NCBI GenBank assembly: GCA_973895155.1
Contig: OZ316895.1
Span: 1,440,412-1,504,411, forward strand
Length of the DNA stretch: 64,000 bases
Origin: Marsupella aquatica
Taxonomy: Eukaryota; Plantae; Marchantiophyta
Direction: 5' to 3'
Shown here: positions 19,731-42,359 of the stretch, in pieces
Numbering within the stretch: position 1 is the stretch's first letter
Layout of the letters: every line of letters starts with the position of its first letter
The notes under the pieces: model-generated
What the model saw: only the letters and a program-made list of their open reading frames with translations
What the model was told of the DNA's origin: nothing
Databases searched by the model: none
Made by a program: the position numbers and the translations under genes

Positions 19731-22700
19731 GATGGAACAGAGTGACACAGAGATGTGTGAGTATGAAAGGAAAGCTATGGAACAACGAGCATACGTGAAA
19801 GCCAAAATCGCAGAACTGGATCTGGAAAAGGATGTGGCTGAATTGTAAGTGAACGATTCTCAACTACACCCCTCCGCTGAGTTTGTGTGAGATGAATAGT
19901 TCAATGCGGCACTGAAATTGTGACTGTATTCTCATATTGGAATGTCGCAGAGCCACAGCATTTTCAAAGAAACAAAAGGAGTACGCAAGAAGGGTGACCA
20001 ACACTATCTCTGGGCCTGTGCGTCGGAGTGACAGGTTGAGCAAGAAGGTCGTACCTACAATGGCAGAATGTGGAGATGACATTGATGCTGCACAGGTGGG
20101 TGCAGACACTAGACAAGAAGATGCAGATGATGAGTATTTTCCAGAGGAAATGGATGAGGATGGGGGTTATGAAGATGAATACATTGCAGAGCAGCCCCAA
20201 AAGAAACATGTAAGTAGTTTTCCCAACAAGGTTTTGAGTTAAAAACTCTTGTTTAGAGGTTTCATATGTTCAGTACTACACATATGTACCTTGCTTAGTT
20301 CCTGACATTGTAGTTGGTGATGTGATGCAGCGTCCTGCCAGTTTTGTTTTGCCTTCAAAGCCTGTGCATGCACCATACCAGCAGGGGGGGCTGACCTCTG
20401 ATCAAGGTTGGCGAGGTGGTAGTAGTGGTAGATCCCAGGCTGGTGCCCAATACTATGGCAGGGGGCAAGCTCTAGGTTATGCCCGTGGTAGAGGCAGAGC
20501 AGGTCCAAACCCACAATCTCGTGGGTATGGACGTCCACCTCAACCATGGGGATGTGAGTATATATCTATATGCCAGTTCTTTGTGAAGGCATGGCACTCC
20601 TGAATTTCAGACTGCATATCAATTTTTGACATTGTTTGGGATGTATTGGATTCAGACAACATGAAATTTTGTCCACCTGCCATTGCATGCAGATTCTGCC
20701 CAACCTGATTGGGCAAATGCTAGTAATGATCAGTTCCAATGTCCACAAGGACAGACATGGGTTGAACCAGGTTGGGAGGATGGTGGTGGGTCGTGGAATG
20801 AACAAGGTTGGGAAGGTGGTGAAGGTAATTGGCAGGGATATCAAAATTCAGTACCTACAAACGCTGGAAGAGGAGCAGGTAATGTCTGATCTTGTCAGCA
20901 ATGGAAGAACTCATTATATGTGGAGTCCATTCACGTGGGGGGGACTCTGCACATGTATAATGATAGAAAATGTATGTGTGCAGGTTGGACAGTCGAACCA
21001 TCGACTCAAGTATTCACTAATGCCCCTATGCAGATGCAGCACGGAAGGGGGACAGGTATGTCGGTGAATGTTCAGTTGTTTTCCTACAGTTTGTACTTAG
21101 TTTTCAGTACATATGTTTGCACACACATACCTAGAAAGTGACATCATCCGGCCCCTGTACTAGGCTGGACAGGTGGTCCAGGGTCGCAACAATTTTAGAG
21201 TGCAGTCCCTGCACAGGCATCTACAGGTAGAGCTACAAGTATGTATGTTTGAAGAATTTTTCTTGAAGTGAAGCATTGAATGTTGCCGTCATCCATTCTG
21301 CTATATGTAGTTCTCAAGCATGAATGGCATTGTATTTTCCCAGGTGGCTTCAGAACCCCAGGTAGGGTGAATGAAGGGGTGGCCAATACAACGCCCAGTA
21401 CTACCGAGAGCAGTGCACGAGGGGAGGTGACAAAGAAAGGGAACGTAAAGTTGAATGAGAGACAATGGGTGGATGCTGAGTGTCCTCGCAAGAACCGATG
21501 GCATGCTGATTTGAAAGCTGAAGTATTGCGTTGGTTAGATGTGAGTGTTATTAATTTTAAAAAACAGCATCCAAAAGATTGGAAGACTGTATGTGAAAAT
21601 GTTGCTGCCAAATGGAATTATGTGGGCAGTGATGATGGCGTGGACATAGGTTGCCTAGAGAGTACAGCAGGTAAAATTATCAAGCAAGAGAGGTGGAGAA
21701 TGCATAAGGCTTGGAAGGAAGGTGGGGAGAAGCCAGATATGCCTCCACCAGCCAGTTGTGATGATAAAGTGTGGGCAAGGTTAGTAGCTTATTTTGTAAC
21801 AGATGCTTCAAAAAAGAAGAGTTCACAGATGACCGAGGCCAGGTTGAGTGTTCAGAACCCTAATCTGACAGGAAGGACCGGCACTGCACCGACAGCTAAA
21901 CGTTTGGTAAGAATGAATGGCCTAGCTATGTAATTTATGCTACACTATGTACTATTTTTTAGTGTAAACCCATACATGTAAACTTTGTTTTTTAGTGTAC
22001 GTTCCCTGAATATTGATCGATAACTTGTGTTTGCCATGCATGTGCAGAAAGCCCAATTGGGGCAAAGCCCTTCAAAAGAAGAGTTGAGGGCTGAAATTGT
22101 GAACACCCGGGCTCAAGAGGGTGCATCTGAATCCTCCAAGCATGTAAGTTATATGAGTTCTGATTGGTAATTGAATGACCTACGTTGAATTTCAGGTGTA
22201 CACTGTATATAACATTGATTGTGCATATATTGCCCAACATTTCATATGGAGTGATTGAACCTATACCCCTGTGTCATGTAGGGAGGTGGATCTTCACTTA
22301 CAGAGATAAGTGGTCGTTTGAAGGCTGTCGAAACATGTCTTCCAGAGATCAATGAACGTTTGAATTCATTGACTGACTTGTTCCATGTGAACTTCAAGAC
22401 ATTAATGGAAGCTGTTGTGTCGGTGAGAGATAAAATTGATTCCAATTCTGCAGGAGTTCCACCATCACCACTTGAGGTGGCAAAGTCGATGCACTCTTCT
22501 GGCATGCCAACGACATGTAGGCTTGAAGGTAAGGCCTTTACAACTGTGTGGGATATGATTATTAAATGTATAGTTTGAATTGACATTGTTTGTTGAATGT
22601 GTTATTTTCAGTAACATATATTGTGGTTGTTGTGTCCATAGAGAATAAGACAGGTGCTACAGAGAAGAAGTATGAGAACCTGGCAAATACTCGCTGTAAT

Positions 22701-23438
22701 TTAGAGGCAACAAAGTTGTAGTCTGTACAAGCAACTTGTTTGACAGAGGGCAGTCAACCATGTTTGGATGAGGATGACATTGGCAAGGGAGTGGATGATA
22801 TCAATGTTGGGGCAAATGAGGATATCAGCAAGCATGACAATGATACCATTGAGCCAGATTCATGCTATGTAGATCTTGACTCCATTGCAGAGATAAATGA
22901 TTTGCAGAATGTATCATTCTCAATGACAGGTGTGCCTCTTGTTGAGATAAATCCAACCAAAGAGTTAGTTGGTATGACACTCCCAGGTGATGAACCTGCT
23001 ACTGTGACAGTCCTAACAGAGGAACCTACTGAGCCTAGCTTCACTACTGTGAAGAGAGGAAGCATGCGCACACGAAGCAAGTCTGCTGGTGGGAGCAGAG
23101 CCACGTCAAAGGTTTCATACAAACCTCCAAGAACAGTGCTGGCAGAAAGATCTAAGGTGGAAGTGGGGAAAGCACCTAATGCTGAGGGACAAAGTGGCTT
23201 GTTAGCTGTTGATGAGAGTGGAACACGAGTAGGATTTGCCAGAGTGCAGGTTGGTTCCACAACGTTCCATGGCAAGAGGATTCCCCCAGGTTATTCAATA
23301 GTGTTAGTCACATTACTAGTGAAACCTAAAGCTGTCCTTCCCATTCCAAACACAAATGATGATCCTCCTCAAAAGACACTTGGAGATGCTGCAGGTTCTT
23401 TGGTATTATGGCCAAGCAAGTTCATAGAGGATCCATAA
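19731..23438 (+). pseudogene. Multi-exon TnpA-like gene of E1
   Basis: Spliced exons including 21343-21906 (KNRWHADLKAEVLRWLD..W.RLV.YF..KKKSSQM..R) and a C-terminal FHGKRIPPGYSIVLV..LPIPN.NDDPPQKTLGDAAGSLVLWP typical of CACTA second ORFs. In-frame TAG at 22719. The 5' exon structure is approximate. Confidence 0.75.
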
Positions 23439-23939
23439 CAATGTCATGCCATTATTTGTTTGTAGTGTGAGTCATGTTATGTAGATTTTAGATGTCAAGA
23501 AGCAGTACAAGAATCATGTCCTCTTGGAGATTCATAGTATCATGCATGTGCTTTCAGTTATCTCATCCTACAGTCATCAATTATGAGTTCCTGTTTTGTC
23601 TAAATTACATTGATCACATTGTAAACTATTCCATTGGAATTCAAATGATCTTCATTTTTTAGCAAGATTGTGATTGTGTTTAATTCTTATGAATGTTTTA
23701 TGTAGGATCTGCTTATATGATGCTTTGTTTCATGTGGATGTCATTCATGCTATGTTCATTTCTTGTATTCAATGTGTTATATTTCTAAAGTTAGAACATC
23801 AGGTTTCTATGTATTGTAATGTCGAGTGCTCTCTCTCCTTATGAACTGTCCCTCTGTGTTCATTAGTCATGGTTATAACTTGCATGTGAACCTTATTAGT
23901 TATAAACATGAGTATATAGAGTCCCAAATGGTTCTGTTG

Positions 23940-24270
23940 TGTGACGCGGGCCAGGGTCTCCATTGGTCTCTCCTGTGACACTAAATAGTCACACGCTAGT
24001 CGTTGTTGAATGCGGGTAAGTCATGTATGTGACTTACGATGTGACTCGCTGAAGTCATATTGCAGTCACGTCGAAACAAGGCTAGACTCCACAATAAAGT
24101 CACAGATCAGTCACAAATGGGTATCAAGCAAGTTGCAAAGCCCAGTATCAATAGTGACTTCCATTTTTTGGTCTCAAACTTTTGCAACTCCAAGGGTCAC
24201 AGCGTGGGTCAAGTCACGTTGAGTCACAATGAAGTCACATGAGCCAAAATGAGTCATATATTGCGGTCTC
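23940..24270. repeat. E1 right subterminal repeats, AGTCA(C/T) in both orientations
   Basis: More than a dozen AGTCAC/AGTCAT/GTGACT-type copies directly inside the TIR, with similar motifs at 6100-6290. Confidence 0.75.
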
Positions 24271-27200
24271 AGTTCACCTCGGATTCTTCTAGTGAAAGCT
24301 TGTCTAACAATCAATGAGCACTCTCAGAGAAATATTTTTCCATCTACATCGATACTAAATGGTTTTTCAACTTTTTCATAACCACACAGAATTTACCGTT
24401 AGGTTTACTATCCTCAAGTTTTGTTCCAGGACCAAACTTTCAATAATTTATTATTTTTCTCGAACCTGATATTTTGGCAGTCCCTGGTTGTGAGTATTGA
24501 ACGAGGGCACTTGTTACGTTACCATTGGATGCTCTGGTCAAGGTTTTCAAGCTTAAAATTGTGTTCTTATTGGGGTACCAGAAGGAAAACTATTTTATTG
24601 TGTGTGCCACAGGTAGTGTTACAAAAGAAATGGAATCCCTTCTCTAGTGACAGAAACCAGACCACATACAAAGCACCGCTCAAAACAAACAAATGAATAG
24701 GGAGTTGGAAAACCTGACAATGAATAGGGAACTGAACAAGGGACTGAGCTGAACTGAAAAGGCGCACAGGCGGCGCCGGGCTGTGTATACACTTAACGGG
24801 TGGGCTGTGTATACACTTAACGAGTGATAGGAAAGGATCCGGATTGGAATGCGGAGATTCGAGCTGTGCTGCCCAGAAGGATGGCATAAGCGTTTAGATA
24901 GGCGGTGACAAGTGAGAGTTGATTGGACCCAGGTATCTTGGCTGGGGGTTATCGCGGCTGTAGCAAGATTTAGGTTCACTAGTAGAAATCGGGGTAATTT
25001 AGACCATACCTTATAGGACTAAGCCCACTAAGTCCTTCTTCCATACTTTAAATGACTCGCATCCATTGCCAAGGTTTTGTTAAAGACTATAAAAGACTTT
25101 GAGTGTTTTCCGGTTTAGTTAAAGACTATGAAAAGTAACCTTGCTACTTTGTGAAGGGTGAACACTCTAGGACATCATGGGTTTTGTTCTTGGAATCACT
25201 CTAAAGGTCCACACAAAGACTAGTATAATACAAAGTCTTACAAGGGTTCATGATAAGAGTATACTTAAGAAGGACCGGTGACATGCTACTTTTTGGCCTA
25301 AGTGCTTAAGGACATGCCTTGTATATATCACCAACCTTAACTAACATTGCACCGTAAATATCCATGTAACGGGTACTTTTCATAACTTAGGGTACAACTG
25401 TATTGGAGGGCTTAGGGTGGTTTCTAACCGGAACCGGAACTAATGCATCACTATAACCCTAGCTAGGTACAACTCCCACACCATGATATATTCCGCATTG
25501 CCAACTAGTGTCATTTTAATAGGGTCATGGCCACTAATTGGCACAATGAACAGTCTAGCCCGTGATTGATTTTAGTCTAAATGATGGTGCCTTTTGATCC
25601 AAGATTAATTCCACAAGGGGGGGGGGGGGAGGGTTAGGGTGGGGCACAACTAATTAAGTGGCCATGACTTTGTCACCAAAGGATTTTATTTAAAGTTATC
25701 CTTAACCCGTGTTAGTTTTGTGTCTTTTGTTGCCTAACACTCTGGCGCGGACGTACTTATTATGCTCAACGGGTCACCTCAACGGAAACGAGCTTACATG
25801 ACTGCTTGCACTAAGTCTTGGGTTAGGGTGACTGTAAGTGCTTTGGTCATCATAGCAAATTAGGAATATTGCATTTTAGGACTGGATTTAATGTTGGGCA
25901 ACCTTAATCCTGATTATGGCACAATAGAATGCCACTATGTGCCGACCATGTATGTGCAAATATGACCATTCATTGCCTTCTTAGGGTAATTTGCCAGGCC
26001 ATTTTTGCCTTGTTGGAGTCCACTAGTGTTTACAGAACATATGCTTCTGTGCTCAACGGCTCACCCCAACGGTTAGGGCTTTGTAAATTCCTTCCCCTAA
26101 TTCTGTTTAAGGGTTTACGCTTAACTTTTGGGCCGGACTAAACTACATGGGCAAGGCGCGGGAGAATTCTTCGTGACTTAGTGGTCGAAACAAGGTGGTG
26201 GGGTCTTGGGTGTTCGGGGTTTTGCCAAAGGGTTTTTCATTGACAATGAGCTTTCTCGATCAGTCCAAGCGTCATGCTGCTCTAAGTGTATACACTCTTG
26301 CCATCCCGAGCACCTCACGCGAGCTGTGAGCAGTTGCATCCTCCTGTTGTAAGTGCATTGATCTGCCAAGCGTTCAAATGCAAAGCTGCTAGCGTCTACT
26401 CCCTGTGCTGGTTGAATGTGTAGCGCTGTCTTGTGACGATTGAAGATTGCCCCTTACCTTTTACCGCCATCGCTGAATGCAGGATCGACCCGAATATAGC
26501 ACCTGTGCAGAGGCATTGGGTGAACATAGTGAATGCCGTTTGTGTCTTGTGCAAGGTTGTGGGCCTAACGTTCGTGAGTCGTGAGCTGCAGACTACATGC
26601 GACTCCAAAGGAGGCATTGGGGAGGACACGGTGAAGCAACAAGGAGCGGCGCGGGAGCTTAGAGTGGGCCAACGCTAGCTGAATCCAATCCAGGAGATGT
26701 TGCGCTAAGGTGAGACTCTGAGTTTAGGGTTGCTTCAGTGTCCAAGTAGGTTCTCTTTGCGTCGGCAGCTAGAAGGTAAGCTCGGGGGCTTTACAAAGGG
26801 TTAGTGTTGCGGACTTTCCCTCCTGGACGTTGCGTGTCTTCATTTGCAACTTGTTTGTGGACCTGTGATCCTGAGACTGTCAAAATTGTTGCGGCCGCAC
26901 CGACAACTTGACGACGCATTTTGTGGATGCACCGTTAGTAATCGCGACTACAGCTCTCCAATGATTGCACTTACCATTTTTGACCACCTTGCATGATGTC
27001 CATCCGTGGGCTGGACCCCAGGGAGTAGATTTCGGTACATTTCGGTAGATTTTGTCTATGCCCCCGTTCCTCATTTTGTGCAATGTCCGCCTGGCACTTG
27101 GTTCTTGATCCCTACATTGTCGTCTGCCGCTCGGCTGCTTGCGGAAGGGATCGAACAGATTGGAGGTCACTGTGGACTGACATTCAGGCCTGGGTCAAGC

Positions 27201-29953
27201 AAGGAGGTTAGAGTTGAAGTCGCCTATGCTTGGCCTTCTCTATTTTCTCTGCTTGCCACTACCTCTATTGTTGCTTACCATTTGCAGCTGGTGAAGCTGC
27301 ATGCGGGTTGCATCTATTCTACGGGCGCGCTACGGGTGTTTTATGGATTGTGGACTTTATGTGGTGTGAGAATCGGTAACAACATGAACCGGACTTTTTT
27401 TACAGTCTTGGAATGTGCGTGAGCTGTGAAGGTTGCACTTCAGAGCTGATATTCCTGTCGCCGCCTACTCCCATTGTTGTGTGTTCGTAACGTTGTGCAT
27501 CGTAACGTTGGAACTCGAAGCTGAGCTGCGCACTGTCAACCATCAAGCGCTATTGCGCGTTGTCAACCAAGAGGAGATGCCGCATCCCACATTGAGTTGA
27601 ACATTCAGCTAGGGACCTGAGCTGCGCACTTTCAACCATCGAGCAACGACCAAGCTTGGCAGCGCTCTGGGATTTATTGGCCACATTGACAAAGCGGAAG
27701 ACAGAGGTGAGTGTTCGTGCACCGTTAGAGTAACCGCGAGTACTCTATTACATGCCTTGTTCTCCCGTCCACTGTTTCCTGCGATTTTCTTTCTTCCAGA
27801 AGATAATGGTGATTTCTTCTTCAATCAAACAAAACCCCACCCAACCACCACCCAAGAACGTGGGGTGTGCGCTACTTAATCCTCCTCAAACTGGCCCATT
27901 GTTCATTGAAACCCCATATATTACCCCCCGGCACCAAGGGACCAGTCCCAACCTGTCTTCCGCTTGCCACCCTCTTCACTCTCTCGCACATCTATCTCCC
28001 GATATTTCACGCATAGCCGAGCCCACCGAAAGCTCTCTCCCTACAATCCCTCCCAAATCAACTTTCTCGTTTCCTGCTGCTGCTGATGTATGTTTGTTCT
28101 CCCCTATTTTTGTTTACTGAATTTGGTCTCTCCACACTTCTTGCTTGACATTACTGTTTTGCTCCTCCCTGGATCCAAACATGCCTTGTGCCCCGTGCTC
28201 CGACTTGCATCCTTTTCTTTACTAAGGGGGGGACCACAGCCTCCAGCCATACCTTGGATGTCGGGCCTGGTCAAGACGGTGGTCGGTAGCTCGTTTTTGT
28301 TTTTTTCTCTTTTGTTTCCCAAGCTTCTGGGCAAGGGCATTACCATTCTGGATTCTCCGCGAGGCGCCACTAGCTTTTTTTCTCGGTTGCCCGTGTGCCT
28401 GCCTTCTTAGTTTTGTTTTTTCCTCAAGTGACCAGGCCATCGCTGTATGCAGATTTTTCTTGTTGTATTCATATACAGTATTTTATTGTTCTATCTAGGC
28501 TGTGGCAAGCCAACAAACTGTTGACAACCAACATGGAATAACAACTATGCAGTGCAATGGCAGAGGACACTGTCCAATACAGGAATGACATGGTTATGTT
28601 TTCAATTCCCTGCTTGGATGAGGCATGGTGTTGCTTGTAATCATGTATTTCTTCACACTAGAAAAGCAGTCTGTCAGATGAGGTTGTCGGGATTGTCTGT
28701 GGGTCAGTCATCTTACGGACACCTAGCAACGTCAAATGAATGGCGGAAACGGGCCATGTTGTCATTTTGAAATTTGTCTTTCCTTTTGCCATGCTACCCA
28801 ATCATTTTGTTAGTCCATGAGTCATAGATTCATAGATTCTATGTTTTGTGCTTTGTCTAGAATGCTATGGCGCCCATGCTACAATTTGTGGTTTTTGTCT
28901 AAGCACAAATCCTCTCTGTGCCTGGTCTCTGTGTCCCGTCATTTGGATTGATTGTGCAGACGTTTCCTCTTCTCCCAGTCCTTGTCATCCACCAGCCAAA
29001 GCACATTGGATTGTTTTCAAAGGAGGGCTGTGTAGTTTGGAGGGTTTGATCTATGCAGCGGATTTGAGCAGATTGGCGGTTGTTAGTTTCTTCTTGTAAA
29101 ACCTGTCTGTCTTTTCTGCTTTTGGCCATGCTCCTTCACTTCTTGCTGCAAGCTCAATGTGCTTCAGCTATGGCAATATTCACTTACCCTATCCCAACGG
29201 CACTGCCATGAGCTGTAGGACAGCCAATAGAAGCAGATTGTATCAATTGCATGTAAGTCAGGGTATTTTATGTATTGCGGAACAACTGTCTAAGTATGCT
29301 GCAATGGTCGGTCTTGCGCAGCTGAATGAGCCAATTTCATTTTCCCTGTGCACTTCTATTTCTCAGAGAATTCCCTGGTCATGCTCATTTCCCCCAGAGT
29401 TAGAAAACAAAGAAGAAGAGCTGACTAATTGTAATTCCAATCCATATCCTGATCGGTCAAGGATTGTTCACTACATTGGCCTTGTCATTGGCCGAGGTCA
29501 CCAAATTTTGCTTGGTTTCATTCCTGTGGAGCACTGCTGTGATGGATTTGTCGTAGCATTCTGCAAACTCTCACGGTTTGCTTATGGCCATTATTTGCAA
29601 TTTGCTGCTACTAATATGTCTTCTTCTGAGCAGCATACACCAGAAGTAAGCAATAGTGGAGGTTTAACTGCACATCAACACATCTAGTGAACTACCTCTC
29701 TGCTGCTCACTGGAGGGTGAGACTTTCACTCTTTCTGGATATTGTAGTTTGTAAGCAAGTTGATTAGGAGTGTTTCATGCTATGTTTACACTGTGACCCC
29801 TAGCTGGAACCAATGGAATGACACAGTGAGTGGGAACTGATAATTTAAGGTTGGTTGCTGTTGGTGAGGCAAGTACAGCTCCTGCTCACCTTGCTGATCG
29901 AAGGTGCTTATCAGAGGACGTGAACACACGACATCTCCACAAAAGCAACACTT

Positions 29954-30403
29954 ATGGTGAGGACCCGCAACGCTGAACATGTGCGGCTTGCACGCAAGGC
30001 AGAGATGTTGCGCCTTGAGTATGTCAGACTTGGGATCCTTCCAGCCCAGTCTGCATGGTACTTTGAGTACCCAGTTGTTGCCAGGAACAACTACAGCCGG
30101 CCTGTACCTGCTTCTCCACCCTTCCCAACATCCTTGGTATTTCTGTCTCTTGTACATGACCCGCCACAAATTAGGGCCCAAGGGTGTGTGCACAGTTGCC
30201 AATATGACTGTCCTGCCTGTAGGGCTTCTGGCCTAGAGTTGGATGACCGTTCTCTTGGATGTCGGTTTTTTCACAGAGCACAATGTATCATCTGGAACCA
30301 CTCGCCATCCTGCAGTGTGCCTGGCGATGTCACTTGTCCTGCCCTCCCAGACCCCACCACCGGTCACTTTGGTGTCTACACATGTTTGGATCACACGCTC
30401 TAG
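29954..30403 (+). CDS. Cargo ORF A of E2: 149-aa Cys/His-rich protein
   Basis: Intact paralog of 12071-12520 with the same length and the same position in the cassette. Confidence 0.6.
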   Translation: MVRTRNAEHVRLARKAEMLRLEYVRLGILPAQSAWYFEYPVVARNNYSRPVPASPPFPTSLVFLSLVHDPPQIRAQGCVHSCQYDCPACRASGLELDDRSLGCRFFHRAQCIIWNHSPSCSVPGDVTCPALPDPTTGHFGVYTCLDHTL

Positions 30404-31072
30404 AGGACCACTTGTCACACCGCATGCACAAACCAGAGACCATTGACCTATAACTTAACACTTTGACTTGAACAGAGAGGATATTTACTTAAGATTTTGA
30501 ATTATGAGCAATTTTGGGTCCAGGGTTTAGGGTCAACAGTACATAACTTATCCTATTATGGCTGCACTAAGTACAATATCCTAATTTAAGAGGCTAGCAA
30601 GCTCACTTAAAAGTCTCCTTTCAAAGACTGGAATTAATGGGCCATGTGATAACCTGGAAAAAGTGATTTATGCCTAACTTATTTGTCTCATTCACTATCA
30701 TAGCCTATTTAGGATGTATAAATTACAACCCTGATCACACTGCTTGATACCAATCCTGTTCAAAAAATGCCTGTTTTACATGTCACGACTGTTATATGTG
30801 ATTCAAATGCATTAAATCTTGTTGCAGATCTCCTTTGGTGAATCATAGCCACAAAATTGAGGTGTAGGTGGAGCTATTGTACGAGGGGATCAGTTTTTAG
30901 TGTGGGCTCAACAAACCAAAAAGTATGTCTACTCTGCACATGTGTGTGAACATTTCATTGCAGTAGCAATTGCCACTCTAGTCTATATGCTACACTGTAC
31001 TTTTTGTACACTGCACTAAATTGTATTGTCTGTGCACTCTGCTAAATTGTACTATCTGTCTCATGCGTAGGC

Positions 31073-31753
31073 ATGGCACGCCCTAAAATCTGAGCCAAGA
31101 AGCGGGGGACAGAGGTGAGCAACACAGGTGTAGTTGGGCCAGATGGTAGTAACTTCTCCGCAAGTCAGATTTTCCAGAAGGCAGCTCATTGTTGTGCCAT
31201 TTGTGACGATGGTGGTGACTTAGCCATATGTGAGGGCCCTTGCATGAGGCATTTCCACCTCAACCCGGAGTCTGACCTTGCTGCAGAAAACAACTGTCCA
31301 GGGGTGGGCCTCCCGTCAGCACACCAAGGAGGCTGGATGTGCACTGATTGTTTGGAGAAGCAGGCTAAGTGTGCACAGTGTGGGAAGTTGGGGTCTTATG
31401 AGGGCTCTGTTGATGCTCCACCACTTGTTAGGAAATGCCCTGACAGATATTGTGTGAGGTTCTTTTGTTTTTCATGTTTGCCCGATCTTGCCACAGCTTG
31501 CCCACTTCATAAGTGCAAGGCATGTGGTCAGCACGATGAAGATTTCTGGGTGGACATAGTCCACTGTGTTAGGTGTCCCACCATGTGGCACTTTCATTGT
31601 TTGAAGGAGCGTCAAGCAGAAGGCTATGCTTGTGACAGACACATCTATGATCACTCTGCACATGGTGTTGATCGATGGATCTTCTATTGTCATCGCCATG
31701 CCATAGATCCTACTTTGCACACTCCCATGAGAGATCACATTTCTTGGCTTTGA
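31073..31753 (+). pseudogene. Cargo ORF B of E2: EDM2-type composite PHD finger protein (226 codons) with an early nonsense codon
   Basis: ATG 31073 aligns with the E1 start; TGA at codon 7 (31091-31093, CAA in E1). The remainder is open and carries the full Cys/His array through FYCHRHAIDPTLHTPMRDHISWL. Confidence 0.85.
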
Positions 31754-32353
31754 ACCTGAATAATGTACATGCATAGTGCACCTGATGTGGATACCTTGGA
31801 GATTGCAGACATTCCAATTTTGAGAAGAAGGACCTCTGTAGGAGAGGATGCTTAGGCAACAAGTACCCTAAGTTCATTACTTGTTCCTGGGTACATGCCT
31901 TCAAAATCTCCCCTTAAGCCTTCTAGGAACTTTTTTAACTCTGCAATCATTTTGATCACGACTTACATGACACTGCTTAAATTAAATCAGGACTTCTCAT
32001 TATGAGCATATAAGTTACAAGGCTATTTAATTTGCGAGAATTCCCTTAAAGTGTACCAACATTTTGTATTCTCATTGAATGTCTGCCCCCATACGAAACA
32101 TCTGTATGTGGCATCACAAAACAATTGCACTTGTCACCTTCAATATTGTGAAGGCACATATTCAAACTATGAAGTGCATGCTTGCAGGTGTCTAGTACGT
32201 TTGTCCCAATATTTCTCCCGTTTGGAATCGGAGCAGAGACTCACCAGACGACTGGACTGGACCAAGTTATAAACGCAGCATTTTAAGGGCCCTCCGATTA
32301 TCAGGTGAACGCATTATCTTCCGGTCTGCAGTGATTAGGTGGCCCGTGTGTAC

Positions 32354-33202
32354 ATGGCCTCTAGGAAACGTACAAATGTTGACCACCCGCCTCTGTTGGC
32401 TGGAATCAAAGCCATTTTGATTCCTGGCCACTATGGGTTCACCCAAGTGAGTTGGCCAATCGTACAAAAACGATTCTCAGAGTTCCATGGGACTGAAGTC
32501 AAGGACATCACTCCACAGACTACACATGTTGTTGCGGGGACATGGCTGGATGTGATGAACAAGTGGTCATGGTCCTTCATTGATTTTGCCATTACCAACC
32601 AAGGTCTAAAAGTAGTTGAAGTCTCTTGGCTGACCGATTCTGTTAAACATAGGTGTGTACAGAGTACTGAGCAATATGAGTTGTGGGAGAGTGAGGAGGC
32701 CACTGCAGAGGCTTTGGCTGAAAAGGAAGCCTATGAAGCAGCGGCAGAGAAACCCAACTTTGCTTCTGTCCAATATGGACCTGTTGTCAACATAGGACAC
32801 CATCCTATGCGTGCAGATGCTATATTGAATGAGCATGGCAAGGAGAGAAATACCATTATGAAGGGGTTCAGTGTGGTATTTGCAGAAGAAGGAATTGGGG
32901 AGACTAAGTGCAGACTGTACAAGTCTATAGTCGTTGAGCTAGGTGGGACAGTGGAGGAGAGTCTAACAGAAACCTCCACTCATGTTGTAGGTCTGTCATA
33001 CATGAAAATATGCAGAAAATTCTTTAAGACAACAGTGCGTGATTTTGTCATGAACAACAATCTTTGGGTGCTTTCCCCTGATTGGCTTCTGGAATCAGCA
33101 GCTAGAGGGAAGCGACAGAATGCTTGGGACTTTGATATTTTTGAGGCCTGGCCCTCCAAGATTCAGCGGAGATGTATGCTTAGCAAAGGTGGGAGAGAGT
33201 GA
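32354..33202 (+). CDS. Cargo ORF C of E2: intact tandem BRCT protein (282 aa)
   Basis: Two BRCT repeats with THVV and W(L/I)x(D/E)S signatures; basic N-terminus (SRKR); open from ATG to stop. Confidence 0.85.
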   Translation: MASRKRTNVDHPPLLAGIKAILIPGHYGFTQVSWPIVQKRFSEFHGTEVKDITPQTTHVVAGTWLDVMNKWSWSFIDFAITNQGLKVVEVSWLTDSVKHRCVQSTEQYELWESEEATAEALAEKEAYEAAAEKPNFASVQYGPVVNIGHHPMRADAILNEHGKERNTIMKGFSVVFAEEGIGETKCRLYKSIVVELGGTVEESLTETSTHVVGLSYMKICRKFFKTTVRDFVMNNNLWVLSPDWLLESAARGKRQNAWDFDIFEAWPSKIQRRCMLSKGGRE

Positions 33203-33342
33203 GGAGTAGGAGTCCCTCATATTTTTGTATAAATCACAATTTTGTAATAAATGTGATCCTTGAACTAACTCATCTTGTCATGGTTGGTCGCAGTTGAAGT
33301 GATTGTTGTTTCCTGCTGCGTGGGGTGTGACTGTGAATCTAC

Positions 33343-33912
33343 TTGCTGGGCTCTGTTTGGCTGAAGACTTTGGTGGGTATGCTGCCTCTTCCAGACCGTC
33401 AGGCCCTGTGTAGGGTCCTCCTACGGGTTGCATCGTGCATGGCTACTGCTTGGGCTTACTTGTGTGGATTGGTAACCAGACAGAGTGTAGCTCCATCCGA
33501 GATAATGCCTGCAGACCTTGGATGTGTTGTGAATGCTGTGGTGAATGAGGATGCACAGTCGGAAGAGGACATTTACTTTTCAGCAGATGAGTTAGACAAG
33601 CACGATGCTGTAGGTGGTTCCTTGTTGCCTGATTTGGCAGATGATATAGTTCTTACACATGTCTGGCCGAGGGTTCTTGTGGTGTCTGGCGCACAAGATA
33701 TCTGCAAATATAGACTAATTAGTACCCAGTGGAGGGACTTGGTAGCAACATGTGCACCATGGAGGGCACTGCTGCCACTGCTTGTAGGCACGGATCGAAG
33801 ACCACCATGGCATGAGCAGGGTTTAGACCTTGATGACTTAATGTACATGCCTGAGTACCTCAGGGCTGAGTGGCATCGACAACAAGATTGGTATCCGTAT
33901 TTGATGTGGTAG
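33343..33912 (+). CDS. Cargo ORF D of E2: F-box-like protein
   Basis: SLLPDLADDIVLTHVWPRV..ICKYRLISTQWRDLV..PW matches the F-box pattern LPxLPDD(I/V)..RxVSxxWRxL. The start codon is uncertain. Confidence 0.55.
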   Translation: MLGSVWLKTLVGMLPLPDRQALCRVLLRVASCMATAWAYLCGLVTRQSVAPSEIMPADLGCVVNAVVNEDAQSEEDIYFSADELDKHDAVGGSLLPDLADDIVLTHVWPRVLVVSGAQDICKYRLISTQWRDLVATCAPWRALLPLLVGTDRRPPWHEQGLDLDDLMYMPEYLRAEWHRQQDWYPYLMW

Positions 33913-34238
33913 TAAGATGAGGACATCTCACACCGGTCTCGCACCTGGCACCTGTGTCTATGACTATACATGATTGGACTCTGATATGGTCATGGATGTA
34001 CGTGCAGAGGCAGTACATGTGAGGACAGCGGAGGAGTTGACACCCTCAAACATTTAGGAATTTTGTCTCATTCACTTGAGAATAGGTACATGACTCAGGC
34101 ACCTATATTTTTTGTTTTTTTGTTTTTTTGGAACGTTACGTATTTTGGCAAGTACAATCGGGGGTGAAATCCTTAACAGGAAGTGTATTTTTCACTTGCA
34201 TAATAAAATGACAGGGTGCTGAGTGCGTGTGTATAGTG

Positions 34239-37200
34239 ATGGCTCCAAGGTTGCCTCTTCACAACCCATTTAGGATTAGGCATCATGATTCTAAATTGTG
34301 GATGCGTGAACAAGCCCGGGCCGCCCAAGGTAGGAGTAGGAGGATGAGATGCCCATGCACACAGTGCCAAGGATTCAAGTCATTGAGTTTGAACACTGTG
34401 CACCTTCACCTGCTGCGGCATGAAAGGCACCCTCGGTGGAGGGTTTGGAATGTACCAGCAGAAGAAGACTCCTCTGATGAAGAGTGGAGAGCTGACTTTG
34501 TGGATTCTAATACAGCTAGGCGTAGAGACTACGTAGAGCAGGACATAGACTGTGCAGAGGATGGTCCTGGGGTCCAACATGAGAACGTGGATGACCAAGA
34601 TGGAGATGCAGAGGCAGTCACTGAGGACGGTGGGATGGATGTCCCAAGAATGGTTCAAGAGATTTTTGAAGACCTTGATGCTTTTTACGACACAGTGGAA
34701 TCAGAAGAGGACAATGAACCGCAACCACACATTGGCGACGGCCAAGCTGAACCTGACTTTGACATTGGGGGAGGTGCAGCAGAGAGGGAGTGGGTGTTTG
34801 GGGGCCCAAAACACATCAAAGAAGCTTGCATTCCTATCTACGAGGGGTCAAACTGCTCCAAGCTGGGTTTTGTCGTGTTGTTGTTGAACATCTGTGGCAA
34901 TCACAATGTTCCCAATATATTTGTGACAGAGTTGTTGACCTTCCTGCGCCGAAATGTGTTACCAGATGGTAATTCAATTCCAAAAAATATGTACGAGGCT
35001 AGGAAATTGATGTCTAACCTTGGGCTGAACTATGTGTCTATTGACGCATGCCCTGATGGGTGTGTTCTCTTTCGCAAAGAGCATGCAGATAAATTGACAT
35101 GCCCTCATTGTGGTAAGCACAGGTACAAGAATGTAGGGAAATGTACACACCCTGCCAAGGTTCTTCGTCATTTTCCTCTCATTCCTAGACTACAACGTCT
35201 GTTTAGATGCCCTGCCATTTCCAAGCTGATGACATGGACTCCTGATAACAAGAGCAGTGATGGCCTGCAGCGTCACATTGGAGATTCCAACCATTGGAAA
35301 TTTGTTGATGAGAGGTGGCCACAGTTTGCTGCAGAGAAGCGGAACTTTCGATTTGGTCTATCACTGGATGGAGTAAACCCATTTGGAGACAAAAACAACC
35401 GTTATTCATGTTGGCCGGTTACGCTGCTAAATTACAACCTTCCCCCATGGATGACTACAAAGAGGTTTTTTGTCATGATGGTGCTGTTAATCCCTGGACC
35501 AGCTTCTGTGACCGAGCAATTCATAGATATCATGTTGGCTCCAGCAGTGGAAGAGTGGAAGACTTTGTGGATAGAAGGGGTGTTAACCCATGATGTTCTG
35601 AAGGGGCTTCTTCGACCCAGCCCCTTTAGACTGCATGCAATTTGTTTGCTGGATATAGCAGATTACCCAGGCCATGGCATCATATCTGGACGAGTGACAA
35701 AGGGCTATGTGGGGTGCACACCATGTGGGAAAAATGTGACAAGTGAGTGGTCGCATGCCCTGCACAGTATGAAATTTCAGGGGCATAGAAGGTATCTGCC
35801 TGTTGATCATCCTTACAGGCACACACGGTCTCAAATTGCACACTTCAACAACAAAACAGAGCTTCGTGGCCCACCACAAAGGGTCACCAGAGAGCAAGTC
35901 CTGAGGTGGGCAGCCAGGAAGGCTGATTGGGACAAGAGAAGTGCCACTGATCGAGAACCTGAGGATCCAGTGGTGAAACACGGTGTGAAAAGACAGACCT
36001 TGATGGACTTGGAGTTGGAGTACTGGAGGGTAATGTACTTAGCCTCCAGCCCCTGTATGATTGCAATTTTAGATTGGAGCAATGGTGGATTGATGTTGGT
36101 TACAATCCTCCTATGTGGTTAATTAGTGTTTCTGTTGTTGAATTCTTTGCTTTGTGGAGTGCAGGAATTCGAGCCCAGCAAACACAATGTGGACGTCATG
36201 CACATTGAGAAAAATATTTGTGAGAGCTTGCTGAAGTTCTTGTCGGGTGAGAAAGATACAGGAGCAGTTCGAGCTGATATGCAACAGAAGGGGATTCGCC
36301 CTCACCTTTGGTTGAAGCCCCATGCAAGCAATCCCAATGTACTTCTCAAGTTCCAAGCTCCCTATGTGTGCACACAGGATGAATGGAAGACATTCTTGTA
36401 TAGATTGAGCTGTCTGAAAGTGCCCTCTGGCTATGCTGGTGCCTTCAAGAAGCATATTACAAAGAATAAACTTGGCAGTATGAAAACACATGACTACCAT
36501 GTGTTGATGCAGCACATTCTGCCCCTATGCCTCAGAGGTCTCATGCAGAAACCAGTCCGTAATGTCATTCTTCGACTGTGCAATGTATTTCGCCGTATAT
36601 GTGTGAAAGTGTGGGATCCCCAAGGATTGGAGCAGTTGAAGCAGGATGCTGCTTATGTCCTCTGTGACTTGGAGATATACTTCCCCCCTGCTTTCTTTGA
36701 TGTTATGACTCATCTCCTAATCCATGTGGTAGAAGAGCTAGGGCAGTATGGGCCAGTCAGTACCAGATGGATGTACCCTATGGAGCGATACATGAAGTTG
36801 TTGAAAGGTCATGTGAGAACATACTACAGGCCAGAGGCTTCCATGGCATTGGGGTACATTAAGGATGAGACGTTGGGATTCCTAACAGAGTACATGGCTG
36901 GGTCTGGTGAAGCTATGACAAGAGTTTGGAAATCTGGTGAAGATGATGGAGTGAGTGGCGAGGTTGTTGAAGGTGTGGGACGTGCTGTTCAGCTGCCTGT
37001 TGCGATTCGAGACAAGGCTCATTCATATGTGCTGGCAAACACAGAGCCTATGCAACCATGGTGGAGGTGAGTGATTGAATTGACTTGCCTTTGTTGTGAT
37101 GCTTCTTGTCTGTTCCAAGGGTGATCTTAGGTTGTCATGTGTTGTTTAGACCTAACTATGCCTGTACCTCATATTGCAGGGAATATGATATGCAAAAAGC

Positions 37201-37939
37201 TGCACACTCTGGGCAGCAGGATCCCTTCCCACAGTTCGAGCAGTGGATTCGGGTGACAATTCGAGAGCATAGTAGACATCACCCAAATATGGAGAAGGAT
37301 TTGTATCTTCTATCTGTGCCACCACGATTGTCTATTCTGACCTACAAACGGATGAGAGCTTATGGAAATCATTATCGAGTGAGGGATGAGCAGGGTGACC
37401 ATTGTGTATCATATGATTGTGGTTTGATTTCTGTGTTTGAGCAGAGAACCTCTGAAGAACAGAGGGGGTGGATGAAGATGGGTTACGTGGGGGAGTTGAC
37501 CGACATTTGGGTGTTGAATTATGGTAACACAAGTGTCCCAGTGATATTGATGAAGGGATCATGGGTGAAATCAGAGTGGCAGAGACCAAGGGCCACCATG
37601 AAGCGTGATCATGATGGGTTCTTGTTGGCCAATTTTAGGTCCAGAGTACCAGAATGGTCTGAGCCTTTTGTTTTCCCTAGCCAAGTTGAACAGGCTTTCT
37701 TTGCAGATGTGGAGGAGTCACATGGCTGGAGGGTGGTATGCCATAGCCAAGCACGGAACAGGCGGATGGATGGAAGTAAAGTAGAGTTCAGTTTGGATGA
37801 CCATGCTGCATTCGAGCATCCTAGTCATGAGACTGTACTTCCAACTCGGGCAGGGACTGACTACATCCCCTTAACATTGAGAGAGACATATGATGAACCT
37901 GGGCAAATGGAATATGATGAGGTTGATGATTTGCAATAG
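34239..37939 (+). CDS. TnpD/Tnp2-like CACTA transposase of E2, apparently intact (about 1150 aa)
   Basis: Exons 34239-36029, 36165-37066 and 37180-37939 joined at GT-AG sites give 3453 nt in frame. Transposase-associated, Transposase_21, DUF4218 and DUF4216-like motifs are present; intron positions match E1. Confidence 0.93.
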
Positions 37940-38116
37940 GCAACAGCTGGCGATTGGCAAGTATGAGGTTGAGGATGACTACCTGCACAGAGTCACAGAA
38001 CGGGAATTGCTGCCTAGAATGATGTTTAGGATAGTTGGATATGCATGAAATTGATTGATACTTTGAATTTAGTGTGCTGATTCTCCCTGTTTGGTTGTGG
38101 GTGCTGTGCAGAAGCT

Positions 38117-41100
38117 ATGGGGGAAGAGGGTGATGACATGGAGACAGACATGGGGCTTGGAGAGTGGGGTGAAGAGGAAAGATTGGATATGGATGGAGAC
38201 CCAGATGCAGGGGGCTCACAGAAAAATGCACCTGTGCAGGATGCACAGGGCCCTCATCAAGTCCCAGGTAGGTGGGCAGCTAGAGAGAAATCACATAATC
38301 CATACCCTAGAAGGAGCCAGAGTTATTGGCAAGGGACGCCTGATAATTATGATGATGACTATGATGGAGCAGAAGATGGATGGGATGAATATGAACACCC
38401 AGAGCGTGGTAGAGACGGGTACAGAGGGCAATGGACAGGTGAGGAGGATGATTGGACAAGTAAGTGCCTTGTGCTAGTGATTTTGTGATGGTAGTAGAGA
38501 TTTAGCTCAATATGGACTTATCTGATGTGTAGCTAGGGCAAAGAGTTTATCTTACAAGTCCATGAGTGTGGCATGTACCTGTTGGTATGCAGACTCTGAT
38601 TGGGACAATCACGAAAACAACAAAGGCCATCCACGTTCAGATAGGCGGCAATCATTCACAGGCGGGAGAAACGGCCCTAATTCATCAAGACAAAGCAATA
38701 GGACAGGTGGTCCAGAACCATCTATGCGCCAAGGGAGAGGTAACTTGGTCATTGCAGAATTGCTCTGAAGTCCAGTGTATATTTGGCAGCAGGATTTATG
38801 ATTCATACTTACCTAATGTAAGTGACTGTAAATGGATCCTGTAAATGTGTAGGGACTCCAGGGAGGTTTGGACAATGCAATCCAGGCCGTGGGGGGAGAT
38901 CAGGCCGTGGAGGGACACCTAGTAGCGCTTCAGGGAGTACCAAGGCAGGAGACAGTAACAAATTTGGTAAAGTAGAAGTGAATTCCGAAGGTTGGATAAC
39001 TCCCACATGTGATGGTAAGAACCGTTGGCATTCTGACCTAAGAGGAGAAGTATTGCGTTGGTTAGATTTGAGCATTACAGAGTTTAGGAGTCAGAACAAA
39101 GCTGATTGGGCTGCTATCTGCAAGGACATTCTTGAACGGTGGGACTATGTTGGTAATGATGGTAAGGGCCCAGTTGAAGATTGCATATCAGATTATGCAA
39201 TGAGGATTTTGAAACAAGAGAGGCATAGGTTGAAAAGGATGTGGATAGACAATGGTTCTAACAGGAGAATGCCACCACCCCCATCATTGGAACTGGATCA
39301 ATGGACACGGTTAATCAAAGGGTTCATGTCGGAGGCTGGACAGAGCAAGAGTGAACTGATGTCAAATGCTCGAGGCAAAGTGAAACACCTTTCACAGGCT
39401 GGGAGAGGAAGTTATGCTCCAGTGAAAGAACAATTGGTAAGGCAGTGACATGCCTAATAGTAAGCCTCAAACTTATCATCTTGCTACCATTATTACATTT
39501 TCATTGACAATCAACACTTGGTTTCATTCATATGTATGTTGATGTGGACTGCAGAAGAAATTGACAGGTGAAGAACCATCAGCACAAGAAGTGAGAGAGG
39601 AGTTCATGAAACAAAGGAGTGAGGTGACAAGTGTGACTTCCAAACAGGTGATTATGTTGTAATTCTATATGTTCTGTGACTATTTGGCCTTGAGCATCAG
39701 AAAGAATTGTAGTAGGAAGTAAGCAACCAGTTCTTGGGGACAATTATCTGAGATATGTAAACTGTGTTATGACAGGGAACTGTTACAACTCTCACAAAGA
39801 TGTCTGAACGGTTGAAGTCATTAGAGTGTGGACTCCCTCGAGTGGAAAGTAAATTGGCTGATCGTTTGGATATTGTGGAGGCATCTGTAGCGAACCTTCT
39901 TGCATCAGTGGAATCTAATTTCAAGCTTGTGATTGAAAAATTGGGTGGTTCCCAACCAAACAATGAGGGCAACATTGTACAAAGTGTGCCCTTGTTAACA
40001 AAAAAGGGAATTGGAAAATCTGACACAGGTATGCAATGAGGATTTTGAAACAAGAGAGGCCCATTGTTCATTGTGTCCTATGTTCAAATGTTAGAAGTAA
40101 GTTTTCATGAATTGAGTGAATGGTTTGAATGCAGGAAGAGTGGAGGCAGAGAACCTGGACCCTGTAATCGGTAAGCAGAATGGCAAAAAGGTTGCTGAGA
40201 CAGGTAACCTGCTATGATCCAGTACATTACATTTGAAAAGTGCATGGAGTTTTGTGAAGCTTAAGCCGGTTGGAGGTAATCTTTTCTGTAAGAATTGGTT
40301 GGATAAACTGGGAATTGAAGTGACATCATGATTGATGTATCAGGTGATTCAAAGAGCAATGAAAAAGATGTGCCCAGTGCCTCAGTGACCATAGCCAAGG
40401 AGGTATCAGGTAAGCTGATGCTTTAAATTCCTCTCCTACCATTGTTGAGAAACAATTCAGTGGTTAATAGATTGAACCTGAATCTTGTGGTCTGTTTATT
40501 GATCAGCAGAAGCAGACATGGAGGATATGGCAATGGCAAAGAAGGGGAAGAAGGCTGTTCATAATGGTAAGGAGATAGTGACAACTTTGTGGATGGTGAC
40601 ATGTACATGGCGCACATGTGATGAGTGATTCACTTATGTTGGACAATGCATTGAATTGTAGTTGATGCAGAGTTGACAGACTCTCAACCAAGTGGGAGCA
40701 GGGTGAAGCGACGTCGAAACTTGGGAGCAACATTGGATGCAAGTAAGATTGTAGATGCTTCAATTGAAGCAAGTACAATGTTAGCAGATACTGAGATGAT
40801 GTCGCAAGGAAATCCTGCTACACAATCGGAAGTGTCAAATATGGATGCAGATTCTTTGAAGAAGAGTGTAGCCAATTCTCGATCACCAGCACAAAACACT
40901 CGTGCCAAAGTCATGACTCGCAACCAAGGTATGAATAATGTCATGTATAAGCCACCCAGGAAAGCCAAGAAAAACAGCCAGGGTAAGGTGGAGGTGATAG
41001 CCACAACAGAGCCAGTCCATAATCTTCTATCATGGGAGAATGACTCGCAGGTATGTGTGGGTACAGGCATTTTGCGACCGGATCATGCTAAATTCCATGG

Positions 41101-42135: not shown

Positions 42136-42359
42136 GGGGTCTAAATACCCCCCGGTTTCTACTAGTGGTTGTGCCAGTAAGGTCACTACGTGTGGTATGG
42201 GTGTCCCTGCAATTTTTTCTGGAAACTTGTTTATTTTTAGCATATCACAAGATTTACTTACACTTTAGACACCTTCCGGCCAACATTTACTTGTTCTGGA
42301 CACTTATAGAAATATTTGACATCTCCGGCTTTCCTGACGATTCCTAGTGTACTTTGCCC

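What the first reader, a model, noticed from the sequence alone, without database searches (positions are those of the whole stretch)
31073..31753. Stand-alone EDM2-like composite PHD domain encoded by a transposon
Seen: the Cys/His array CAICDDGG..CEGPCMRHFH..CGKLGS..CPLHKC..CVRCP..H.HCL..FYCHRHAIDPTLHTPMRDHI. From recall this follows the PHD region of plant EDM2, including its distinctive IYCxxHxIDxxLxTPxRDH tail. Established: EDM2 reads H3K9me2-containing chromatin and, in the ASI1-AIPP1-EDM2 complex, promotes full-length transcripts across intronic heterochromatin. Here only the reader module plus a basic N-terminus remains. Inference: it may be a decoy or mimic that shields the element or helps process its long heterochromatic pre-mRNA. 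The two copies have different lesions (22-bp deletion in E1, codon-7 stop in E2), so an intact 226-aa ancestor can be reconstructed.
Basis: partly seen in the sequence, partly recalled or inferred. Interest (0 to 1): 0.86.

Follow-up and report, generated by a model that had tools for sequence, protein, structure and literature searches.

The report
Transposon's histone reader with histone-like tail
A plant cut-and-paste transposon carries its own small gene for a zinc-finger module related to the chromatin protein EDM2, headed by a conserved stretch that resembles the start of histone H3; the protein likely acts as a decoy against the host's silencing machinery, though no binding has been shown.

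Summary
31073-31753 is a 226-codon gene for a stand-alone EDM2-family triple zinc-finger (PHD) module inside a complete 17.2-kb CACTA element; a second element next door has a copy. Both lesions (codon-7 stop, 22-bp deletion) are real but private to these copies: in a public run of matching genotype most copies are open, roughly 150 by depth, so no ancestor needs rebuilding. The gene is under purifying selection (dN/dS 0.23) and belongs to a family of about 30 stand-alone proteins that form one clade beside EDM2. New here: the 'basic N-terminus' is a conserved motif (unsupervised consensus MARPKVKAKK) in register with histone H3 residues 1-9; H3 1-9 ranks second among 104,262 background 9-mers. 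The first finger has lost the acidic residue kept by EDM2 relatives (0 of 20 against 90 of 92), so it may not read H3 as EDM2 does. Best reading (40%): a transposon-encoded H3-tail decoy on an EDM2-derived scaffold. A plain nuclear-localisation tail on a working reader is the main rival. No binding, expression or function was shown, and the transposon link is shown only for this genome.

The parts
24977..42167 (+). CACTA/EnSpm element E2, complete, 17.2 kb
   Evidence: 12-nt perfect TIR pair CACTAGTAGAAA, TSD GTT; transposase domains
31073..31753 (+). Accessory gene: H3-like tail plus EDM2-family triple zinc-finger module, 226 codons, this copy broken at codon 7
   Evidence: intact homologue P0001; dN/dS 0.23
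31069..31070 (+). Probable 3' splice acceptor 2 nt before the ATG (E2 cgtag|gcATG, E1 cgcag|gcATG); intron not shown by RNA
   Evidence: sequence context; inference
31076..31102 (+). H3 1-9-like motif A-R-P-K-I-x-A-K-K (residues 2-10)
31091..31093 (+). TGA stop private to this copy, likely a C-to-T change at a methylated CpG
   Evidence: C read at 31091 in 100%, 99%, 100%, 100% of contig depth in four runs; CpG O/E 0.26 in the ORF
31193..31750 (+). Three zinc fingers of EDM2/NSD type and the EDM2-family C-terminal tail
   Evidence: Pfam PF23011, PF22908, PF23004 below cut-off; AlphaFold2 pLDDT 89 for P0001; NSD3 PHD5-C5HCH Z 6.0, rmsd 2.6, 84 aligned
29924..30403 (+). Cys/His-rich accessory ORF of unknown family (first Met about 29954)
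   Evidence: open in both elements, 92% identical, dN/dS 0.37, p 0.017; no Pfam match
32354..33202 (+). Tandem-BRCT accessory ORF
   Evidence: PF00533 E 8e-14, two stretches; dN/dS 0.53
33337..33912 (+). ORF with weak F-box likeness, absent from E1
   Evidence: PF00646 E 0.082, below cut-off; E1/E2 alignment skips 33346-33996
34239..37939 (+). TnpD transposase exons
   Evidence: PF02992 E 1e-59, PF13960, PF13952, PF13963
38822..41266 (+). TnpA-like exons
   Evidence: PF03004 E 0.013 here, 1.5e-4 in E1
6063..24294 (+). CACTA element E1, complete, 18.2 kb, ending 682 bp upstream of E2
   Evidence: 11-nt perfect TIR pair, TSD AAA
13291..13949 (+). E1 copy of the gene, N-terminus MARPKIQAKK intact, frameshifted by a 22-bp deletion at 13604/13605
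   Evidence: an E1-type contig spans the site without a gap (X1 record 6)

Best explanation
This is a conserved accessory gene of a high-copy plant CACTA transposon, encoding an EDM2-family triple zinc-finger module behind a short tail that resembles histone H3 residues 1-9, and it likely works as a histone-tail decoy that blunts host silencing of the element. Shown: the gene, its place in complete elements, purifying selection, the EDM2-family origin, the conserved motif, and the loss of the acidic residue before finger 1. Inferred: the protein is made from a spliced transcript and loses its first Met (Met-Ala); the R2-x-K4-x-x-A7-x-K9 tail then fits H3-tail pockets of host readers or writers (PHD or WD40 readers of unmethylated K4, K9 methyltransferases, possibly host EDM2 itself), while the zinc-finger module, which probably no longer docks H3K4 in the usual way, serves as the scaffold that brings the tail to chromatin or to EDM2's partners.
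For: Motif: unsupervised Gibbs sampling of the N-terminal segments of 30 members gave MARPKVKAKK in the three best of 8 runs. 25 of 30 members carry [AST]-R-x-K; among these A7 18/25, K or R at 8 16/25, K or R at 9 20/25. A profile of these 9-mers scores H3 1-9 (peptide as printed in PMC9677696) at 17.5, reached by 1 of 104,262 background 9-mers and 1 of 3,513 lysine/arginine-rich ones; on positions 5-9 alone, which were not used to pick the motif, 0 of 77 background [AST]-R-x-K 9-mers reach H3's score. The K23/K27 peptide scores only 4.3. The motif stays while its distance to finger 1 varies from 28 to 48 residues and members are about 40% identical. 11 of the 25 have it directly after a Met, the published H3 N-terminal-mimic pattern iM-Z-R-X-K, found in 48 of 20,996 human proteins (PMC8166343). 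It is absent upstream of finger 1 in 111 of 111 non-family proteins scored (strict pattern, same 55-residue window). Function under selection: dN/dS 0.23, p 1.5e-8. Finger 1 lacks D/E at -4..-2 in 20 of 20 members against 90 of 92 others having it. The elements have been methylation targets (CpG O/E 0.39 against 0.70 and 0.76 in two non-element genes) yet reached about 150 copies by contig depth.
Against: The strict pattern (18 of 30, 0.08 expected) was written after seeing the data, and members are related, so the counts are not independent events. The match is imperfect: position 3 is usually Pro (12/25) and position 6 usually Lys (12/25), where H3 has Thr; dropping the two members with Thr3 lowers H3's score to 12.8. 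14 of 25 carry the motif internally, with no free N-terminus, and 5 of 30 lack it. The tail is basic enough to be a nuclear localisation signal. The background is EDM2-like proteins, not a plant proteome. The role of the acidic residue in K4 binding is recalled from other PHD fingers, not tested. No transcript was seen. Relatives outside this genome could not be tied to transposons (two loci of 1.5 and 1.9 kb).
Confidence: 0.4

Rival explanations
1. One reading: a miniature working EDM2 reader that binds heterochromatic H3 tails on the element and helps full-length transcription or shields it; the basic N-terminus is only a nuclear localisation or DNA-binding patch.
For: Zinc-ligand pattern, the DDGG/EEGG and CDG/CEG acidic residues and the EDM2 tail are kept; confident fold; EDM2 binds H3K9me2 and promotes full-length transcripts (PMC7529245 passages); the element has an accessory cassette in front of the transposase that needs processing.
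Against: Acidic residue before finger 1 lost in 20 of 20; RFD and methyltransferase-like domains absent; an NLS does not need a small residue at 1 and 7 and fixed R2/K4 spacing; in land plants DNA transposons are reported to carry H3K27me3 more than H3K9me2 (PMC11982613 passage).
Confidence: 0.27
2. Targeting factor: the module tethers the TnpA/TnpD transpososome to a chromatin state and steers insertion, with the tandem BRCT protein linking to repair at excision sites; silencing is not the point.
For: Sits in a cassette with a tandem-BRCT gene ahead of the transposase; the cassette has been exchanged between elements whose transposases are saturated at synonymous sites; accessory factors are described as modulating integration preference (PMC13547354 passage).
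Against: No link to the transposase was tested or seen; an earlier unchecked note places a similar gene in a P-type element, which fits a transposase-independent role better.
Confidence: 0.15
3. Autoinhibited reader: the H3-like tail folds back into the protein's own finger 1 and is released by modification or by a better chromatin ligand.
For: Linker of 28-48 residues is long enough; in single-chain models the tail is less disordered than the linker (P0001: residues 5-10 at pLDDT 50 or more with a bridge at residue 7, residues 11-22 under 50; P0165: residues 1-10 mean 64).
Against: These pLDDT values are low and no contacts were available; the acidic K4-binding residue is missing; internal motifs in 14 of 25 could not use an N-terminal pocket.
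Confidence: 0.13
4. Neutral captured host fragment carried along by the element.
For: Both window copies and both fetched loci are broken; many database members are truncated or frameshifted.
Against: dN/dS 0.23, p 1.5e-8; family-wide fixed changes over about 60% divergence (His to Cys in finger 2 in 21 of 23); clean Met-to-stop proteins of 206-245 aa; open majority copies.
Confidence: 0.05

Closest known systems
Arabidopsis EDM2 (EDM2_ARATH, P0172) and EDM2-like proteins
   Same: Same zinc-finger series and C-terminal YC-x2-H-x-ID-x5-TP-x-RDH tail; 29% identity over 211 columns, E 4e-25; family and EDM2 group fall on one side against two NSD-type modules, SH-aLRT 95.
   Different: 226 against 1,297 aa; no RFD, no methyltransferase-like (ELP) domain; no acidic residue before finger 1; Cys for His and about 20 residues fewer in finger 2; H3-like tail in front; transposon-borne.
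Liverwort EDM2-like paralogues with a C-terminal module (Calypogeia P0011, Riccia P0013, Marchantia P0015, P0061, P0065; names)
   Same: Best non-family scores against the family profile (141.6, 139.2, 139.1, 134.2 bits against 120.8 for EDM2); share RCP-x2-WH; P0065 and P0011 hold the two best background matches to the tail profile, 58 and 93 residues before finger 1.
   Different: They keep the acidic residues and the finger-2 His; a joint clade with the family was not recovered, only not rejected (p-AU 0.27).
NSD1/2/3 PHD cassettes
   Same: Closest solved relatives: NSD2 PHD1-3 by profile, E 8e-13; NSD3 PHD5-C5HCH by fold, Z 6.0, rmsd 2.6, 84 aligned.
   Different: No SET or PWWP domain; the NSD-type modules aligned here lack the EDM2 tail and score 84-96 bits.
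Transposon accessory chromatin proteins: VANC of VANDAL, Plavaka PAG2/PAG3, TnpA
   Same: Conserved extra genes inside large DNA transposons, mobile between families (bioRxiv 10.1101/2025.02.11.637652 passages; PMC12973397 passages).
   Different: Those are sequence-specific DNA binders or enzymes (SET, methylase, oxygenase); the passages read describe no PHD reader or histone mimic among them.
Histone H3 mimics: human H3TM proteins (iM-Z-R-X-K), influenza NS1, SARS-CoV-2 ORF8
   Same: Short H3-like motif; 11 of 25 members meet the iM-Z-R-X-K pattern and extend it to A7 and K9.
   Different: Carried by a plant transposon and fused to a reader-type module; binding and methylation untested here.

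Membership tests
CACTA/EnSpm transposon | CACTA-terminal inverted repeats with 3-bp target-site duplication | tested here: met
   both elements; chance about 0.02
CACTA/EnSpm transposon | TnpD (Transposase_21) and TnpA (Transposase_24) coding regions | tested here: met
   PF02992 E 1e-59 and 1e-70; PF03004 E 0.013 and 1.5e-4, below cut-off
EDM2-type PHD module | Atypical repeated PHD fingers alignable to EDM2 | tested here: met
   EDM2 described as 2 1/2 atypical PHD repeats (PMC7529245)
EDM2-type PHD module | C-terminal YC-x2-H...TP-x-R[DN]H tail | tested here: met
   17 of 23 family modules; absent from the two NSD-type modules aligned
EDM2 (full orthologue) | N-terminal RFD and methyltransferase-like ELP domain | tested here: not met
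   ORF ends after the tail; members 206-245 aa; RFD only in long proteins
EDM2 (full orthologue) | Nests inside the EDM2 clade | tested here: inconclusive
   sister to EDM2 plus EDM2-like on a long branch in quick trees; grouping with liverwort paralogues not rejected, p-AU 0.27
EDM2 (full orthologue) | Binds H3K9me2 chromatin and the AIPP1/ASI1 complex | not testable with these tools
   acidic residue before finger 1 lost; binding untested
NSD methyltransferases | SET and PWWP domains with the PHD cassette | tested here: not met
   no such Pfam match in the ORF or its neighbours
H3 N-terminal mimic (H3TM, PMC8166343) | iM-Z-R-X-K at the N-terminus | tested here: met
   E1, E2 and P0001 start M-A-R-x-K; 11 of 25 motif-bearing members, 14 internal
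H3 N-terminal mimic (H3TM, PMC8166343) | Binds H3-tail readers or is methylated at the K4/K9 equivalent | not testable with these tools
   no histone or host reader could be modelled against it
Transposon anti-silencing factor (VANC-like) | Reverses silencing of cognate elements in trans | not testable with these tools
   only indirect: selection, copy number

The most novel reading that the evidence does not exclude
Early land-plant DNA transposons have turned the host's own anti-silencing reader EDM2 into a histone mimic: a disarmed EDM2 zinc-finger scaffold carrying an H3 1-9 look-alike that titrates or redirects H3K4/H3K9 readers and writers, traded as a cassette between transposon lineages. 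This would be histone mimicry, known from animal viruses, used by a plant transposon as a broad anti-silencing device.
Probability: 0.35. Interest if true: 0.88.

Novelty: new variant of a known kind. Interest (0 to 1): 0.68.

Why it matters
Transposon-encoded anti-silencing is described for few plant elements, and broad-spectrum forms are called rare (PMC12973397 passage). A 226-residue, high-copy, selected protein with an H3-like tail gives a direct test of whether transposons use histone mimicry, as influenza NS1 and SARS-CoV-2 ORF8 do, and does so in a lineage with a genetic model (Marchantia, if the host is a liverwort). The family's fixed changes relative to EDM2 also mark residues likely to matter for EDM2's own histone reading; the PDB sequence searches returned no EDM2 structure.

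Tried and rejected
No whole genome is held for this window, so copies could not be counted or mapped directly. Search for longer fused forms of P0001: none among 190 candidates, weak evidence, since it also missed EDM2. Complex prediction of the tail (P0001 2-31) with the module (33-226): no answer, score 0.02 against a mark of 0.34, no evidence either way; peptides are untested with that tool. Sequencing-run search: no RNA holder listed, so expression is open. Related-locus scans: one alignment had no usable conserved stretch; 0 relatives in 247 metagenome stretches; 0 in 30 viral stretches; 2 short loci in the last metagenome scan, whose flanks match nothing else in the window. A first profile scan of H3 used a 10-column motif that began at the Met and so was out of register (H3 1-10 scored -18); redone with 9 columns. 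The careful tree did not finish; all trees are quick trees. Foldseek's top hits were PZP domains with TM-scores near 0.2 and are not taken as fold matches. The Atlas gave EDM2/NSD-type PHD clusters of Streptophyta for P0001 (0.93) and did not read the Cys-rich ORF. Lei et al. 2014 and Tsuchiya and Eulgem 2014 are not held, so the detailed peptide preferences of EDM2 are recalled only. Rejected: coding fusion with the upstream Cys-rich ORF (that ORF ends in its own stop at 30403 and relatives start at the same Met); AT-hook reading of ARPK (position 3 varies); H3K27 register; generic PHD or NSD origin.

Full report
1. Observation. A second copy starts at 13291 and has a 22-bp deletion flanked by a GTTG microhomology. 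A search for CACT[AG] ends found two pairs with long perfect complementarity and 3-bp duplications: E1 6063-24294 and E2 24977-42167 (about 0.02 expected by chance). Both hold TnpD and TnpA-like regions, and upstream of them a cassette: Cys-rich ORF, the zinc-finger gene, a tandem-BRCT ORF and, in E2 only, a weakly F-box-like ORF. The host is a land plant by its protein relatives (Atlas clusters of Streptophyta; best named non-family hits from liverworts). Earlier unchecked notes call the genome a liverwort's; I did not establish this myself.

2. The lesions are private. I laid 4 of the 13 listed runs, all contigs of unknown library type. At 31091 the letter read is C in 3,377.6 of 3,377.6 depth in X1, 44,722 of 45,197 in X2, 39,163 of 39,163 in X4 and 141.5 of 141.5 in X5, so most copies have no stop there. 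An E1-type contig (depth 1,813) crosses the deletion site without a gap (X1 record 6). X1 matches the neighbouring ferric reductase region with no difference over about 7 kb at depth 21.7, so it may be the source genotype and is not independent. The depth ratio suggests about 155 copies, about 90 E2-like and 85 E1-like; the tool warns that summed contig depth is a poor copy number, so this is an order of magnitude. Intact proteins are in the databases: P0001, 226 aa, 83% identical, and P0002, 220 aa.

3. Selection and cassette exchange. Nei-Gojobori counts between E1 and E2 give dN/dS 0.23 for this gene (218 codons, Fisher p 1.5e-8), 0.37 for the Cys-rich ORF and 0.53 for the BRCT ORF. dS is 0.11, 0.30 and 0.54 along the cassette but 1.8 or saturated in TnpD and about 2 in TnpA. 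The cassette has therefore moved or been converted between two old element lineages, as reported for the Plavaka accessory genes of red algae (bioRxiv 10.1101/2025.02.11.637652, passages).

4. Family and origin. phmmer against 1.84 billion representatives gave 246 hits at E 0.001, 150 listed; the best 7 and 10 more are short stand-alone relatives, most of the rest are EDM2-type proteins, and the first module that I examined and found to lack the EDM2 tail is at rank 129. A profile search added 12 new members. Arabidopsis EDM2 aligns at 29%, E 4e-25, the Calypogeia protein P0011 at 33%, E 1e-37. In quick trees the family is one clade (SH-aLRT 98-99) on a long branch; rooted on two NSD-type modules (P0145 from Polysphondylium and the unnamed P0131, neither an NSD enzyme) it is sister to EDM2 plus EDM2-like proteins, and a clade with the liverwort paralogues is not rejected, p-AU 0.27 (one search used 29 of 115 modules, long rows dropped). 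So 'EDM2 family' is supported and the exact donor is open. AlphaFold2 models of P0001 and P0165 are confident (pLDDT 89.0 and 89.3); nearest folds are NSD PHD-C5HCH tandems, Z 5.4-6.0, in the range that the tool calls middling. Outside this genome the transposon link is not shown: members sit on short contigs, two fetched loci of 1.9 and 1.5 kb are both frameshifted and show no transposase. Earlier unchecked notes report the same cassette elsewhere in this genome and an EDM2-related gene in a P-type element.

5. What changed relative to EDM2. In 115 modules: D/E within four residues before the first Cys in 0 of 20 scorable family members against 90 of 92 others; finger-2 His replaced by Cys in 21 of 23, with about 20 residues deleted; EDM2 tail kept in 17 of 23. 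That this acidic residue binds unmethylated H3K4 in AIRE- and BHC80-type fingers is recalled knowledge; the AIRE alignment shows it in place. RFD and the methyltransferase-like ELP domain (PMC7529245 passages) are absent.

6. The tail. The set was 29 database proteins plus E1; left out were near-duplicates (P0004, P0168-P0171), three members without an N-terminus (P0009, P0019, P0097) and the broken E2. Gibbs sampling without H3 information gave MARPKVKAKK. Column counts among the 25 members with [AST]-R-x-K: A/S/T1, R2, K4 by selection; A7 18, S7 5; K/R8 16; K9 13, R9 7; position 3 is P in 12 and position 6 is K in 12. H3 begins ARTKQTARK (peptide table of PMC9677696, passage). The profile ranks H3 1-9 second among 104,262 background 9-mers; 37 of 100,000 permutations of it reach the score; on columns 5-9 alone 0 of 77 conditioned background 9-mers do. 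One member (P0156) was taken in a wrong register and corrected. The two best background matches lie upstream of finger 1 in liverwort paralogues P0065 and P0011, so the motif may be inherited from a host paralogue rather than invented by the element. Against mimicry: 14 of 25 motifs are internal, 5 of 30 members lack it, H3's score falls to 12.8 without the two Thr3 members, and a basic tail can be an NLS.

7. Mechanism. Shown: a selected, multi-copy, exchangeable accessory gene with an EDM2-family fold, a conserved H3-like tail and an altered finger 1. Inferred: splicing at the acceptor 2 nt before the ATG, Met removal (rule quoted in PMC8166343, passages and section 12), and decoy action on host H3-tail readers or writers. 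I put this at 0.40, the working-reader reading at 0.27, insertion targeting at 0.15, autoinhibition at 0.13, neutral cargo at 0.05. One paper reports that DNA transposons of land plants are preferentially marked by H3K27me3 (PMC11982613, passage), which weakens an H3K9me2-only story; the CpG depletion of both elements shows past DNA methylation.

8. Novelty. Ten full-text searches (most results seen as listings only) showed no paper on a transposon-encoded EDM2-like module or a transposon-encoded H3 mimic. Passages read: PMC8166343, PMC12973397, PMC7529245, PMC13547354 (no mention of PHD, BRCT or EDM2 in the main text), PMC9677696, PMC3632883, PMC9292364, PMC11982613, PMC13165374, PMC12266144 and the red-algal preprint. 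No supplements were read; Table S6 of PMC12973397 lists Pfam domains in active elements and might hold a PHD entry, and Repbase-type annotations were not searchable. Subscription papers are not covered. Within this scan the EDM2-like cargo has been noted before; the tail motif, the lost acidic residue and the private nature of the lesions do not appear in the lines of those notes that I could see.

9. Verdict. Real feature; a new variant of a known kind (transposon accessory chromatin protein), with a reasonable chance of being a transposon-encoded histone mimic. Interest 0.68.

Noticed in passing
window 11911-15586 against 29772-33346: The accessory cassette is far more alike between E1 and E2 (dS 0.11 to 0.54, rising towards the transposase) than the transposases are (dS 1.8 or saturated): cassette exchange or stepwise conversion between old lineages.
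   Followed up: partly
window 29924-30403 and 12041-12520: Cys/His-rich ORF of about 150 aa, open in both elements, under purifying selection (dN/dS 0.37), no Pfam match; family unknown.
   Followed up: partly
window 32354-33202 and about 14460-15414: Tandem-BRCT protein carried by both elements (E1 copy broken at its 5' end); could bind phosphorylated repair factors at excision sites (inference).
   Followed up: partly
window 33337-33912: ORF with weak F-box likeness (E 0.082) present in E2 only.
   Followed up: partly
proteins P0065 (residue 21) and P0011 (residue 449): Liverwort EDM2-like paralogues carry the two best background matches to the tail profile upstream of their first finger; host proteins may have their own H3-like motif.
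   Followed up: partly
proteins P0034, P0041, P0104: Short stand-alone EDM2-like proteins (P0104 from the grass Eleusine) also start M-A-R-x-K; a separate clade from the transposon family, context unknown.
   Followed up: no
window 61493-62185: Intron-less ORF of the GFA family (PF04828, E 1e-5) that looks fungal by recall; possible horizontal transfer, not tested.
   Followed up: no
window 43962-50064: L1-type LINE (DUF4283, zinc knuckle, endonuclease, RT, zf-RVT) with frameshifts.
   Followed up: no
window 53000-57300: Host ferric reductase (FRO) gene, used as a single-copy depth reference.
   Followed up: partly
window 1-3660: Long minus-strand ORF running off the window start (869 aa) and a coiled-coil ORF on the plus strand, probably remains of another element.
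   Followed up: no
window 13136-13279: Exact 72-bp tandem duplication in the presumed intron just before the E1 copy of the gene.
   Followed up: no
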